A DNA stretch of 64,000 bases, taken from sequence record OR896824.1; one strand, written 5' to 3'. Shown here piece by piece: positions 33,085-44,997 of the stretch. Every line of letters begins with the position of its first letter. Position 1 is the first letter of the stretch. Position numbers and translations under genes: made by a program. Below the pieces are notes generated by a model that worked only from the letters and a program-made list of their open reading frames with translations, was not told the DNA's origin and searched no databases. The stretch is from Escherichia phage SmurfNell.

Positions 33085-33937
33085 ATAAATTAGAGAACAG
33101 CGAGCCGATTACGCTGAGTGAGTTTAGTGATTCCTACTAGGATAGCTACTCCACTGAATAGAGTCGGTGAGTTGGAGACTAGTAAGTACTCTGAGAGAGG
33201 CTACGAGCTAACGCTTATTGCTATTGATAGGGAACTGAAAATCTGCGGAAAACTCGGGAGCTGTCCCGAAATCTCGTAAACTCTTCTCTAGTTTATGTTA
33301 GTGGGGTGTCGAACTGACTTATGTGATAACACTGCCGTCCTAGTATAAACGGTAATATCAAACCGTAACTGGTGGAAGATGCAGGTTCGAATCCTGCGGT
33401 CGGAAAGAATCAGATAACTCGGGCTTATACCGGATAAGCATTCGCTGCTGTAGTACATACTATGACGGTTCAGGAGGTACGCCTCCTGATCAGTATTAGG
33501 TTAGAATCGAAACAGCTAAACCACGAGGAAACCTGACGGCCTCAACCAAACTCGGAACTCGGGATCACTGCCTAGTGTGTACCCCGTTTAACCTGAGACT
33601 AGGCATCCAGCTTCGCATCGAAAATCGGAGGTGCGATTCTAACAGACCGCGTGAATATGAGAGTGGGAAACGCTGACATGAGAGATGTCACTAATGGTGC
33701 CCAATAGTACAGGTAATTCGCGATAATTCCTGTTGAGCGGCAGCAGTAGGCTGGGAGTCATGACCTAAGCCTAACCGAGTTCTTCACATACGGAGAACAT
33801 AACCACAAAGTCACCCTGACTTAAACTGGAAGATATTGTCTGACGGAAGGGCTGCAGAGCTTAATCTGAGGGGGCTGACCCTACCTACCGTCGGGTATCT
33901 TTAAGAGCTTTTATAAGAGTTCTTAAAAATACCTAAA
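33085..33937 (+). other. ORF-free transcribed region (putative ncRNA / tRNA precursor leader) containing a degenerate tRNA-like element
   Basis: About 850 nt downstream of promoter 33050-33078 with no ORF of 60 aa or more on either strand; ends at tRNA-Arg(TCT); contains several hairpins (e.g. CAGGAGG-TACG-CCTCCTG at 33487-33504). Confidence 0.35.
33346..33417 (+). other. degenerate tRNA-like element (canonical T-arm, 8-nt putative anticodon loop, imperfect acceptor stem)
   Basis: GCAGG-TTCGAAT-CCTGC T-arm and ACGGT/ACCGT hairpin with 8-nt loop; acceptor pairing has a U-U mismatch and no CCA. Confidence 0.25.
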
Positions 33938-39328: not shown

Positions 39329-39391
39329 AGTTATCTAATTTGGAAACATATTTAAAAGTGTTTAAACTAGTATTTGAATATTTCTAAATAT

Positions 39392-39482
39392 GTTGGATTA
39401 GTATCGTAGAGGTAGCGAAGCAGACTGTAAATCTGCCGACTCGGAAGGGTCTCGGGTGGTTCGACTCCATCATCCAACACCA
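39392..39482 (+). tRNA. tRNA-Tyr (anticodon GTA), type II
   Basis: Anticodon arm GCAGACTGTAAATCTGC identical to E. coli tRNA-Tyr as recalled; perfect acceptor GTTGGAT/ATCCAAC; long variable arm; CCA. Confidence 0.8.
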
Positions 39483-41450: not shown

Positions 41451-41698
41451 AATTTAGGTTTCTGCTTCCTAGAGAACTGACGCCTAGATAAACAAGGCGA
41501 TGAGTTTCCGGCCGGTTCTAGTCGCTGAAAATCCTCCCGACCAGGTAGGTGTAAGTAAACGAAAGTTTACTTATTAAGTAAGTCCGACACATCGGCGGGT
41601 GTGTTCTAGTACTTAAAGAAGGTCTCGCAAACTTTCTCGCTAGCATGAGTTGATAGCTCGGTGACTTACCTAATAAGTAAATTTATTAAAAAATGTAG

Positions 41699-44299: not shown

Positions 44300-44450
44300 A
44301 ATCTTGAAGTATGCCGGAATCGGTAGACGGGGCTTCCTAAAGGGCGTAAGAGGAACATCCACTCCTCATAAGATACCCGAAAACGAGGCTGAGATAAATG
44401 GTCTATCTCGTGAAGGTTCAAGTCCTTCTGCTTCTTGATATTCAATGGCT
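44300..44450 (+). other. unresolved tRNA-like element (canonical T-arm GAAGG-TTCAAGT-CCTTC, no assignable acceptor stem)
   Basis: Perfect T-arm plus upstream 6-bp hairpin GAGATA-AATGGTC-TATCTC; about 130 nt between flanking tRNAs with no ORF. Confidence 0.3.
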
Positions 44451-44519
44451 CAAAGAGTAACGGTGCACCTTTCTAGAGAATTTTCTGGGCGAGAATCCAG
44501 AAGTAATCAACTAGTTGTT

Positions 44520-44626
44520 AGTGTGATGAGTTTCGGAGAGCCGCCACAATTGAAGTCTTTAGAATGGGTATCGCCCTTTAGCCCCTCCGAAAGGGATAAC
44601 TAGAGATTTCAATTGTGGCTATATCA
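44520..44626 (+). repeat. long-range inverted repeat (GCCACAATTGAA ... TTCAATTGTGGC) enclosing a hairpin and overlapping the 5' end of tRNA-His
   Basis: 12-bp perfect inverted repeat with arms around 44548-44559 and 44609-44620; internal hairpin CCCTTT...AAAGGG. Confidence 0.45.
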
Positions 44627-44691
44627 TAATTGGTTAATGATCCTGATTGTGAATCAGGCCTATGTGGATTCGAATTCCACTAGCCACCCCA
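44615..44691 (+). tRNA. tRNA-His (anticodon GTG)
   Basis: Acceptor GTGGCTA/TAGCCAC, D-stem TCAT/ATGA, anticodon stem-loop CCTGA-TTGTGAA-TCAGG, T-arm GTGGA-TTCGAAT-TCCAC, C73, CCA. Confidence 0.75.
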
Positions 44692-44697
44692 AATATT

Positions 44698-44772
44698 GCG
44701 TCCTTATTTCAATGGAAAGAATGTAAAGCTACGAACTTTACGATCGGGGTTCGATTCCCTGAGGATGCACCA
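44698..44772 (+). tRNA. tRNA-Arg (anticodon ACG)
   Basis: Acceptor GCGTCCT/AGGATGC, anticodon stem-loop TAAAG-CTACGAA-CTTTA, T-arm CGGGG-TTCGATT-CCCTG, CCA. Confidence 0.7.
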
Positions 44773-44796: not shown

Positions 44797-44997
44797 ATGG
44801 CTGATTTCTGCAAAGAATGCTCTATCGATATGTGGGGCAAAGATACTGGTGATCTTTCTGGTCTGATTACAGAAGCCGAAGTTAAAGAAGGCTATGGTGC
44901 TGTTGTAATCTGTGAAGGTTGTGGTATTATTCGTGTTGATCATAATGGTAAACGTCTAGAAGAACCAGATCCAATTGCCACGGTTCCTGTAGAATAA
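44797..44997 (+). CDS. small Cys-rich zinc-ribbon protein (66 aa)
   Basis: CKEC...CEGCG motifs; AGGAAA RBS. Confidence 0.5.
   Translation: MADFCKECSIDMWGKDTGDLSGLITEAEVKEGYGAVVICEGCGIIRVDHNGKRLEEPDPIATVPVE

What the first reader, a model, noticed from the sequence alone, without database searches (positions are those of the whole stretch)
44520..44691. 12-bp long-range inverted repeat that sequesters the 5' acceptor strand of tRNA-His
GCCACAATTGAA (about 44548-44559) is perfectly complementary to TTCAATTGTGGC (about 44609-44620); the latter overlaps the first nucleotides of tRNA-His. Formation of this helix would compete with tRNA folding and could regulate processing, or the element is a structured RNA or recombination site in its own right.
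Basis: seen in the sequence. Interest (0 to 1): 0.45.

Follow-up and report, generated by a model that had tools for sequence, protein, structure and literature searches.

The report
Conserved processing helix locking phage tRNA-His
The inverted repeat is real and is the outer part of a conserved 20-base-pair RNA helix in T5-like phages. The helix encloses a small, interchangeable "RNA III" and holds the start of tRNA-His shut until the helix is cut, most likely by host RNase III; the locus is already annotated in phage T5, so this is an instructive variant, not a new kind of element.

Summary
**Observation.** Confirmed. GCCACAATTGAA (44543-44554) is perfectly complementary to TTCAATTGTGGC (44608-44619). 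The second arm covers U-1 and G1-C5 of tRNA-His. In RNA the helix extends to 20 bp (44543-44562 / 44600-44619, two G·U pairs).

**Identity.** The window is a T5-like phage. In the T5 and BF23 GenBank records this slot reads RNA1 – RNAI – RNAIII – tRNA-His, with the RNAs described as "stable RNA with unknown functions". The repeat is the closing helix of RNAIII. Its outer 8 bp pair the RNAI 3' GCCA plus a 4-nt spacer with the 5' end of tRNA-His.

**Conservation.** Across Demerecviridae I found 17 distinct helix versions around at least 6 unrelated RNAIII bodies, 16 to about 134 nt between the 12-bp arms.
- 96.8% of cells are paired.
- 12 of 20 pairs show changes on both sides.
- 0 of 500 shuffles reach the observed values.

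**Folding.** In the predicted precursor the helix has probability about 1 and the tRNA-His acceptor stem about 0.

**Mechanism (inferred).** The T5-annotated RNAIII ends sit inside the helix with a 2-nt 3' overhang, which is the RNase III signature. The best model is that RNase III excises RNAIII and so releases tRNA-His and the RNAI 3' end. This is untested.

**Verdict.** New variant of a known kind; moderate interest.

The parts
44543..44562 (+). 5' arm of the 20-bp helix (GCCACAAUUGAAGUCUUUAG). It is made of the RNAI discriminator G plus CCA (44543-44546), the spacer CAAU (44547-44550), and the first 12 nt of the RNAIII equivalent.
   Evidence: homology to T5
44600..44619 (+). 3' arm of the helix (CUAGAGAUUUCAAUUGUGGC). 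It is made of the last 14 nt of the RNAIII equivalent, then U-1 (44614) and G1-C5 (44615-44619) of tRNA-His.
44551..44613 (+). RNAIII equivalent, 63 nt. Ends are inferred by transferring the T5-annotated RNAIII ends. It has a 12-bp stem, two small internal hairpins and a 2-nt 3' overhang. The body is not homologous to T5 RNAIII.
   Evidence: fold at -21.1 kcal/mol with z = -3.0
44447..44546 (+). RNAI homolog, with a GGCUC...GAGCC closing stem followed by G-CCA at the 3' end. Its closing stem abuts the long helix with no unpaired nucleotide in between, so the two may stack coaxially.
44547..44550 (+). 4-nt spacer CAAU between the RNAI CCA and the RNAIII 5' end. It is paired within the helix and is presumably trimmed off RNAI after cleavage.
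   Evidence: T5 gap 853-856 of L001; inference
44614..44691 (+). tRNA-His(GUG), with a genome-encoded U at -1, C73 and an encoded CCA. Once separated from the helix it folds into a cloverleaf.
44303..44446 (+). RNA1-like tRNA-like RNA directly upstream (context). In the T5 annotation its 3' end is the nucleotide immediately before the RNAI 5' end.

Best explanation
The repeat is the outer part of a conserved helix of about 20 bp in the polycistronic tRNA-cluster transcript of T5-like phages. The helix closes the small stable RNA called RNAIII in phage T5. Its outer 8 bp pair the 3' tail of the upstream RNAI (G-CCA plus CAAU) with U-1 and G1-C5 of tRNA-His.

**Shown here**
- The helix exists and is conserved by covariation.
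- It is predicted to form instead of the tRNA-His acceptor stem in the precursor.
- The RNA body it encloses is interchangeable, and nearly dispensable in one phage.

**Inferred**
- Host RNase III makes a staggered cut inside the helix, after 44550 on the 5' strand and after 44613 on the 3' strand.
- That one event releases RNAIII with a 12-bp stem and a 2-nt 3' overhang.
- It leaves RNAI with a 4-nt trailer that exonucleases trim back to CCA.
- It frees the tRNA-His 5' strand, starting at U-1, so the tRNA can fold into the cloverleaf.

On this reading the helix is an obligatory processing and unlocking element for tRNA-His, and the slot it frames carries variable small-RNA cassettes.
For: **Anatomy**
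- 20-bp helix with two G·U pairs.
- T5 and BF23 annotate RNAI, RNAIII and tRNA-His in exactly this arrangement, and the 12-bp arms are identical in both.

**Cut geometry**
- In T5 the annotated RNAIII ends (L001 857 and 962) lie inside the helix. U857 pairs with A960, leaving A961-U962 as a 2-nt 3' overhang. This is the product geometry of RNase III (PMC1540722).
- The annotated RNAIII 5' end is 8 bp inside a continuous duplex, so a nuclease that acts on double-stranded RNA is the simplest way to make it.
- Two other T5 stable RNAs, RNAIV and RNA2H, also have annotated ends facing each other inside long helices, with 3' overhangs of 1 and 3 nt.

**Length and context**
- The helix is 19-21 bp in every cassette type. 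[quoted passage not shown]
- About 12 bp lie between the inferred cut and the inner end of the helix. [quoted passage not shown]
- The base pair next to the inferred scissile bond is U:A, not the inhibitory G:C or C:G (PMC1540722).

**Covariation**
- 17 distinct helices give 96.8% paired cells, 12 of 20 pairs changed on both sides, and 0 of 500 shuffles reaching the observed values. Slid controls give 32-44% pairing.
- Three of the covarying pairs (columns 5, 7 and 8) lie outside the mature RNAIII. Selection therefore acts on the precursor, not only on the mature RNA.

**Interchangeable body**
- At least 6 mutually unalignable bodies occupy the slot.
- Phage S124 keeps only a 42-nt hairpin.

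**Competition with the tRNA**
- Helix probability is about 1 and acceptor probability about 0; forcing the acceptor stem costs +9.1 kcal/mol; the released 78-nt fragment folds as a cloverleaf.

**Transcription**
- No convincing promoter or terminator lies between tRNA-Ser and tRNA-His.
Against: - There are no experimental data. The cut sites are transferred from GenBank annotation of T5 and BF23, and I could not verify whether those ends were measured. The -1 U of tRNA-His may have been assigned by convention.
- I found no paper in the searchable library on T5 RNAIII processing.
- In Klebsiella Sugarlandvirus phages the helix register relative to tRNA-His is shifted by 3 nt: the CCA pairs with U-1, G1 and G2. 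A cut measured from the inner end of the helix would therefore not land at -2/-1 in those phages. RNase III may only open the helix, with RNase P finishing the 5' end.
- phiLLS and Kpn13-P3 carry a C·A mismatch at base pair 9, next to the proposed cut.
- The RNAIV and RNA2H overhangs are 1 and 3 nt, not exactly 2.
- The energy model ignores tRNA tertiary structure, base modifications, proteins and folding kinetics.
Confidence: 0.6

Rival explanations
1. The helix is only the structural closing stem of an independent stable small RNA (RNAIII). Its reach into RNAI and tRNA-His is a by-product of tight gene packing. The tRNA-His 5' end is made by RNase P, and the RNAIII 5' end by a single-strand nuclease after the helix breathes.
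For: RNAIII is annotated as a stable RNA. The mature RNA keeps 12 bp of the helix. U at -1 is common upstream of phage tRNA-His genes even where no long helix exists, as in PM135 and Wc4-1. From my own knowledge, U at -1 is also the leader nucleotide that RNase P prefers. In the T5 annotation the RNAI 5' end follows directly on the RNA1 3' end, as expected for an RNase P cut.
Against: Base pairs outside the mature RNAIII (columns 5, 7 and 8) covary. Helix length is held at 19-21 bp while the body is swapped, or almost deleted in S124. The annotated RNAIII 5' end lies 8 bp inside a continuous duplex. The helix out-competes the acceptor stem by about 9 kcal/mol, so RNase P would lack its substrate fold.
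Confidence: 0.25
2. The helix is a regulatory folding trap. It tunes how much tRNA-His matures, for example in response to temperature, a protein or a helicase, and it is not itself a cleavage site.
For: There is strong predicted competition between the helix and the acceptor stem, and the helix is conserved.
Against: There is no alternative conserved structure or ligand-like pocket, and no Rfam match. The enclosed sequence is freely exchangeable. The annotated mature ends fall inside the helix.
Confidence: 0.08
3. The repeat is a DNA-level element: a homing-endonuclease target, or a recombination boundary for cassette exchange. It includes the palindrome CAATTG, and the tRNA cluster is rich in HNH endonuclease genes.
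For: Cassette boundaries coincide with the conserved arms. HNH homing endonuclease genes flank this region in T5 and its relatives.
Against: G·U pairs are tolerated on the + strand only; for example U·G occurs at column 15/34 in 13 of 17 versions. Compensatory double substitutions keep the pairing, which DNA recognition would not require. No cassette is an inversion of another. The arms are in any case constrained by the RNAI CCA end and the tRNA-His acceptor strand. This role is not exclusive of the RNA role.
Confidence: 0.05
4. The inverted repeat is a chance match.
For: About one perfect 12-mer inverted repeat per 64 kb is expected by chance.
Against: The 20-bp extension, the conservation across three Demerecviridae lineages, and the covariation.
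Confidence: 0.01

Closest known systems
Phage T5 / BF23 RNAIII (misc_RNA rnaIII, 'stable RNA with unknown functions', GenBank AY543070 and AJ604530)
   Same: Same slot, between RNAI and tRNA-His. The 12-bp arms GCCACAAUUGAA / UUCAAUUGUGGC are identical. The terminal helix is the same length, about 20 bp, and the flanking RNAI and tRNA-His are the same.
   Different: The enclosed body is not homologous: 53 nt between the arms here, against 96 nt in T5, and unalignable (local alignment score 16, which is background). The window type occurs in 68 of 505 matching phage records.
E. coli RNase III processing stems (pre-rRNA 16S/23S stems, T7 R1.1-type sites)
   Same: About two turns of duplex. The inferred staggered cut gives a 2-nt 3' overhang. 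There are about 12 bp from the cut to the helix end. The pairs next to the cut are A/U-rich. One double-strand cut releases the RNAs on both sides and the RNA enclosed by the helix (PMC1540722, PMC3867540).
   Different: Cleavage has not been demonstrated. One strand of the helix is itself the 5' acceptor strand of a tRNA, and the other contains the CCA end of the upstream RNA.
RNase III involvement in phage T4 tRNA-cluster maturation (McClain 1979, as cited in PMC4810235; details from my own memory)
   Same: It is a phage tRNA cluster transcribed as a polycistronic precursor that also holds small stable RNAs (T4 species 1 and 2). RNase III is reported to take part in T4 tRNA maturation. In my fold, the leader upstream of T4 tRNA-Gln pairs with the tRNA 5' strand.
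   Different: The T4 fold was not significant (z = -1.2), and I could not read the primary papers. There is no sequence homology. This is a lead, not a test.

Membership tests
T5 RNAIII locus (stable RNA III of Tequintavirus) | Lies between RNAI (ending in GCCA) and tRNA-His(GUG) in the early tRNA cluster | tested here: met
   Alignment to the annotated T5 and BF23 regions
T5 RNAIII locus (stable RNA III of Tequintavirus) | Terminal helix formed by GCCACAAUUGAA... with ...UUCAAUUGUGGC | tested here: met
   The arms are invariant between the window, T5 and BF23. All types fold with this helix.
T5 RNAIII locus (stable RNA III of Tequintavirus) | Sequence homology of the RNA body | tested here: not met
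   The interior is unalignable with T5 RNAIII. It is a different cassette.
T5 RNAIII locus (stable RNA III of Tequintavirus) | Accumulates as a discrete stable RNA in infected cells | not testable with these tools
   No expression data are available.
E. coli RNase III substrate | Duplex of about two helical turns (about 20-22 bp; coaxial stacking is allowed) | tested here: met
   20 bp here and 19-21 bp in all 17 versions. The RNAI closing stem abuts the helix. Criterion taken from PMC1540722 and PMC3867540.
E. coli RNase III substrate | Staggered cuts that leave 2-nt 3' overhangs | tested here: inconclusive
   The T5-annotated RNAIII ends give exactly 2 nt; RNAIV gives 1 nt and RNA2H 3 nt. 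I could not verify that these annotated ends were measured.
E. coli RNase III substrate | No G:C or C:G pair at the proximal-box position next to the scissile bond | tested here: met
   The adjacent pair is U44551:A44611, read from the sequence. Rule taken from PMC1540722.
E. coli RNase III substrate | Cleavage depends on rnc | not testable with these tools
   Needs in vivo or in vitro assays.
Any Rfam family | Covariance-model match at or near the gathering score | tested here: not met
   Only the tRNAs match. Nothing covers 44447-44613 or its homologs.
Intrinsic terminator | G+C-rich hairpin followed by a U run | tested here: not met
   The scan finds no terminator at the helix, and the 3' arm runs straight into the tRNA.

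The most novel reading that the evidence does not exclude
The 20-bp helix is a universal RNase III excision adaptor with two roles. First, it makes tRNA-His maturation depend on RNase III and produces a tRNA-His that starts at U-1 without the usual G-1/C73-guided RNase P cut. Second, it provides a plug-in slot from which unrelated small RNAs (at least 6 bodies) are released with defined ends, and these may be accessory or anti-defence RNAs that phages exchange.
Probability: 0.2. Interest if true: 0.65.

Novelty: new variant of a known kind. Interest (0 to 1): 0.42.

Why it matters
If the model is right, it assigns a concrete role to one of the T5 "stable RNAs with unknown functions". The conserved feature would be the processing helix, and the RNA body inside it a replaceable passenger.

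It would be an example of a tRNA whose 5' acceptor strand is held in a competing duplex until a double-strand-specific nuclease releases it. This bears on an open point: how a phage tRNA-His with U at -1, and no G-1:C73 pair, acquires its 5' end and is charged.

It also marks a mosaic hot spot where T5-like phages swap small non-coding RNAs. That is relevant now that phage tRNA clusters are being studied as counter-defence loci.

On the practical side, several genome records annotate a spurious ORF over this RNA region.

Tried and rejected
- **Rfam scans** of the window's tRNA cluster and of seven related loci found no family other than tRNA.
- **Literature searches** for T5 stable RNA, RNAIII or RNase III processing and for T5 tRNA-His -1 found nothing on this helix. 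The T4 genome review is not held.
- **T4 analogy.** A fold of the tRNA-Gln leader showed some pairing with the tRNA 5' strand but was not significant (z = -1.2). I kept it only as a lead.
- **Cassette inversion by the inverted arms** is rejected: there is no reverse-complement similarity between cassettes.
- **Origin of the window-type body** from elsewhere in the window: no second copy.
- **Terminator or promoter reading** is rejected.
- **Protein-coding reading** of ORF 44445-44603 (52 aa) is rejected. The ORF spans RNAI and the swappable cassette, and indels relative to T5 break the frame.
- **Metagenome and IMG/VR scans** with an RNAI 3'-end pattern recovered more copies of the known cassette types but no new type. 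Most metagenome hits were chance matches lacking RNAI.
- **One extraction artefact.** A wrong anchor in L011 was removed before the covariation count.

Full report
**1. The observation**

The two 12-mers exist and are perfectly complementary. GCCACAATTGAA is at 44543-44554 and TTCAATTGTGGC at 44608-44619.

ARAGORN and Rfam place tRNA-His(GUG) at 44615-44691. The 3' arm therefore covers G1-C5 and the nucleotide at -1 (U44614).

The complementarity does not stop at 12 bp. The repeat finder reports 20-nt arms, 44543-44562 and 44600-44619, at 90% complementarity. The two non-Watson-Crick positions are G·U in RNA, and the minimum-free-energy fold of 44300-44700 contains an uninterrupted 20-bp helix.

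A perfect 12-mer inverted repeat with a spacer of 120 nt or less is not rare. First-order Markov simulations of the window give about 1 hit, and the window holds 9 such helices. The case therefore rests on the extension to 20 bp and on comparative evidence. Among the 30 tRNAs of the window, tRNA-His is the only one whose 5' strand is engaged in a long helix with upstream sequence: 20 bp, against 8 bp or fewer for the rest.

**2. What the locus is**

The window is a T5-like phage of the Demerecviridae. The region 44300-44700 is 100% identical to Escherichia phage SuperGirl, and more than 500 phage records match it.

The curated GenBank records of T5 (AY543070) and BF23 (AJ604530) annotate the homologous stretch as follows:

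| Feature | Description in the record | Length |
|---|---|---|
| RNA1 | tRNA-like stable RNA | 144 nt |
| RNAI | stable RNA, ends in ...GAGAGCC-G-CCA | 107 nt |
| gap | unannotated | 4 nt |
| RNAIII | stable RNA with unknown functions | 106 nt |
| tRNA-His | annotated with one extra 5' nucleotide, U-1 | 78 nt |

In an alignment of the window with T5 and BF23, the two 12-bp arms are invariant. The sequence between them differs in both length and content, 53 nt here against 96 nt in T5.

Reading the T5 coordinates onto the helix:
- The 5' arm is RNAI G73-CCA, then the spacer CAAU, then the first 4 nt of RNAIII.
- The 3' arm is the last 6 nt of RNAIII, then U-1 and G1-C5 of tRNA-His.

Transferred to the window, the features are:

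| Feature | Window coordinates |
|---|---|
| RNA1-like | 44303-44446 |
| RNAI | 44447-44546 |
| spacer | 44547-44550 |
| RNAIII equivalent | 44551-44613 (63 nt) |
| tRNA-His | 44614/44615-44691 |

No Rfam family covers RNAI or RNAIII.

**3. Conservation and covariation**

I collected homologous loci from IMG/VR, from metagenomes and from annotated phage records.

Between the conserved RNAI 3' end and the tRNA-His 5' end there are at least six mutually unalignable RNAIII cassettes. Lengths below run from the discriminator-paired nucleotide to tRNA position +5.

| Cassette type | Length |
|---|---|
| S124 (bare hairpin) | 42 nt |
| Window type | 77 nt |
| T5 type | 120 nt |
| poul149 / bux type | 135 nt |
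| UTK0009 / bastian type | 147 nt |
| CRW-SP6 type | 157 nt |

The CRW-SP6 type is homologous to the one in Klebsiella Sugarlandvirus phages. Pectobacterium phage DU_PP_V (Mccorquodalevirinae) carries a further, weakly related body of 131 nt.

Every type folds with a terminal helix of 19-21 bp. The inner half of the helix has a different sequence in each type yet stays complementary. The outer 12 bp show compensatory changes too:
- GAG/CUC in the UTK0009 type.
- AAUUAAAG/CUUUAAUU in S124.
- CAAGUG/CACUUG in DU_PP_V.
- CCAAAUUUGAG/CUCAAAUUUGG in the Klebsiella phages.

On a helix-only alignment of 17 distinct versions:
- 96.8% of 340 cells are standard pairs.
- 12 of 20 pairs have changes on both sides.
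- 0 of 500 shuffles reach the observed pairing or covariation score.
- Sliding the partner strand by 1-3 columns drops pairing to 32-44%.

A caveat applies. The inner helix columns were aligned by position in the helix and not by homology, which favours the structure. The slid controls and the outer-helix substitutions do not depend on that choice.

Two points matter most:
- Pairs that lie outside the mature RNAIII (columns 5, 7 and 8) covary. Pairing is therefore selected in the precursor.
- G·U pairs are frequent on this strand (U·G at column 15/34 in 13 of 17 versions). The + strand RNA is therefore the selected molecule, not the DNA.

The window-type cassette is in 68 of 505 matching phage records. 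The S124 minimal hairpin occurs in one phage genome, present as two database records. This shows that the RNAIII body can be almost entirely lost while the helix is kept.

**4. Competition with tRNA folding**

For the precursor 44447-44691:
- ViennaRNA gives the helix pairs a probability of about 1.0 and the seven acceptor-stem pairs about 0.
- Forcing the acceptor stem costs 9.1 kcal/mol (-72.9 against -82.0).
- The helix can form as soon as its 3' arm (44600-44619) has been transcribed, well before the 3' acceptor strand at 44681-44687.
- The RNAI closing stem (GGCUC/GAGCC) abuts the helix with no unpaired nucleotide in between, so a coaxial stack is possible.
- Once separated at -2/-1, the 78-nt tRNA fragment folds into a cloverleaf (-23.5 kcal/mol).
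- RNAIII folds as a 12-bp stem with a 2-nt 3' overhang (z = -3.0).

These are energy-model predictions. They ignore tertiary structure, modifications and proteins.

**5. Mechanism**

In T5 the annotated RNAIII 5' end (U857 of L001) pairs with A960, and the annotated 3' end is U962. The ends therefore face each other inside the duplex with a 2-nt 3' overhang. This is the product geometry of RNase III, which cuts both strands to give 2-nt 3' overhangs, 5'-phosphate and 3'-OH (PMC1540722).

The RNAIII 5' end lies 8 bp inside a continuous helix. That location is the expected kind of site for a nuclease specific for double-stranded RNA.

Several other features fit what is described for E. coli RNase III substrates (PMC1540722, PMC3867540):
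- Total length of about two turns.
- 6-8 bp on the outer side; the minimal substrate tolerates 6 nt there.
- A U:A pair next to the scissile bond, not a G:C.

The same pattern recurs in T5 for RNAIV and RNA2H. Their annotated ends also lie opposite each other inside helices of 17-21 bp, with 3' overhangs of 1 and 3 nt. The window has the RNAIV-like helix at 41563-41584 / 41663-41684.

The model is therefore one staggered RNase III cut, after 44550 and after 44613, with three consequences:
- It releases RNAIII.
- It leaves RNAI with the trailer CAAU, to be trimmed back to CCA.
- It frees tRNA-His starting at U-1. The remaining 6-bp intermolecular duplex is weak (-10.7 kcal/mol as a bimolecular duplex).

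The cut itself, the enzyme and the fate of U-1 are inferred, not shown.

Points against the model:
- I could not verify that the T5 ends were measured at the RNA level.
- In the Klebsiella phages the helix is shifted by 3 nt relative to tRNA +1. A cut measured from the inner end would leave a short leader there, so RNase P may still finish the job.
- Two genomes have a C·A mismatch at base pair 9.

**6. Rivals**

- **Closing stem of a stable RNA only, with RNase P making the tRNA end.** This does not explain the covariation outside the mature RNAIII, the constant helix length around swapped or deleted bodies, or an RNA 5' end inside a duplex. I give it 0.25.
- **A regulatory folding switch without cleavage.** There is no conserved alternative structure, and the interior is freely exchangeable (0.08).
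- **A DNA-level recombination or homing site.** Cassette boundaries do coincide with the arms, and HNH endonuclease genes are nearby. However, the G·U asymmetry and the compensatory changes argue for RNA, and no cassette is an inverted copy of another. I give it 0.05; it is not exclusive of the RNA role.
- **Chance** is excluded.

**7. Relation to what is known**

The element sits in the T5 RNAIII slot and shares its helix, but its body is not homologous. It is a variant of a known but functionally unexplained locus.

It works like an RNase III processing stem, as in pre-rRNA stems and T7 R1.1-type sites, but with an unusual composition: one strand includes the CCA end of the upstream RNA and the other includes the acceptor 5' strand of a tRNA.

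RNase III has been reported to take part in T4 tRNA maturation (McClain 1979, cited in PMC4810235). My look at the T4 tRNA-Gln leader was inconclusive.

I found no paper in the searchable library that describes this helix or its processing. Older subscription literature from the 1980s may do so.

**8. Verdict**

The feature is real and conserved, and very probably functional at the RNA level. It is already annotated in T5 as part of RNAIII.

The new elements here are:
- The covariation evidence.
- The cassette polymorphism around an invariant helix.
- The inference that the helix is an RNase III-type processing lock on tRNA-His.

Interest is moderate, at 0.42. Novelty: new variant of a known kind.

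Noticed in passing
window 41563-41584 / 41663-41684: There is a second long closing helix here: 22-nt arms, 91% complementary, 78 nt apart. It is homologous to T5 stable RNA IV. In T5 the annotated RNAIV ends also lie opposite each other inside the helix, at a conserved A·C mismatch, with a 1-nt 3' overhang. T5 RNA2H shows the same pattern with a 3-nt overhang. Several T5 'stable RNAs' therefore look excised from long duplexes.
   Followed up: partly
window 39345-39366 / 39373-39394: An AU-rich 22-nt hairpin (82% complementary) lies just downstream of a TTGATATAAT-like promoter. Its 3' arm covers G1-U3 of tRNA-Tyr (39392). This may be another leader structure that overlaps a tRNA 5' end. It was not chosen in the MFE fold.
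   Followed up: no
window 44303-44446: This is an RNA1-like tRNA-like RNA. The T5 homolog scores 24 bits against the Rfam tRNA model. Its acceptor-like stem, GAAGUA/UGCUUC, differs from the T5 stem GGAAUA/UGUUCC by two compensatory changes. In Klebsiella phage Shiner the same slot holds an intact tRNA-Ser(GCU) (L038 843-929), so RNA1 looks like a degenerate tRNA-Ser carrying a large insertion.
   Followed up: partly
window 44447-44546: The RNAI homolog has a GGCUC/GAGCC terminal stem followed by G-CCA, a tRNA-like 3' end. In the T5 annotation its 5' end follows directly on the RNA1 3' end, as expected for an RNase P cut. Its function is unknown.
   Followed up: no
window 44445-44603: A 52-aa ATG ORF overlaps RNAI and RNAIII. 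Several related genome records (SuperGirl, Sepoy, TrudiGerster) annotate a 'hypothetical protein' here. It is probably a spurious call over non-coding RNA genes.
   Followed up: partly
window 44614; L038 1184 and 1258; L039; L040; L047 829: The nucleotide at -1 of tRNA-His is U, not the usual G, in every phage examined: T5-like, Sugarlandvirus, Hongcheonvirus, Novosibvirus and an Ounavirinae phage. The Klebsiella phage tRNA-His also has U rather than C at the discriminator position. How these tRNAs obtain a HisRS-competent 5' end is unclear.
   Followed up: partly
L041 (UTK0009), L032 (mar003J3), L031 (CRW-SP6): between RNA1 and RNAI: Some Epseptimavirus genomes carry an additional insert of about 115-150 nt in the RNA1 3' tail, just before the UCAAU|GGCUC junction. 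This slot therefore also accepts extra small cassettes.
   Followed up: no
L088 (metagenome contig OKVY01000028.1), downstream of the RNAIII 3' arm: A Sugarlandvirus-like contig has an insertion of about 150 nt between G2 and G3 of tRNA-His, flanked by a duplicated ATTTGG. It contains a promoter-like TTGACG...TATTGT. The helix keeps its UGG partner, but it is now detached from the tRNA.
   Followed up: no
window 44797-44997: A conserved 66-aa protein with two CxxC pairs (zinc-ribbon-like) lies between tRNA-Arg and tRNA-Gln. Homologs in relatives are annotated 'Phage conserved protein (FelixO1)'.
   Followed up: no
window 33334-33405: There is a weak Rfam tRNA match (29.3 bits, at the gathering score) that ARAGORN does not call. 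It may be a tRNA-like RNA or a pseudo-tRNA.
   Followed up: no
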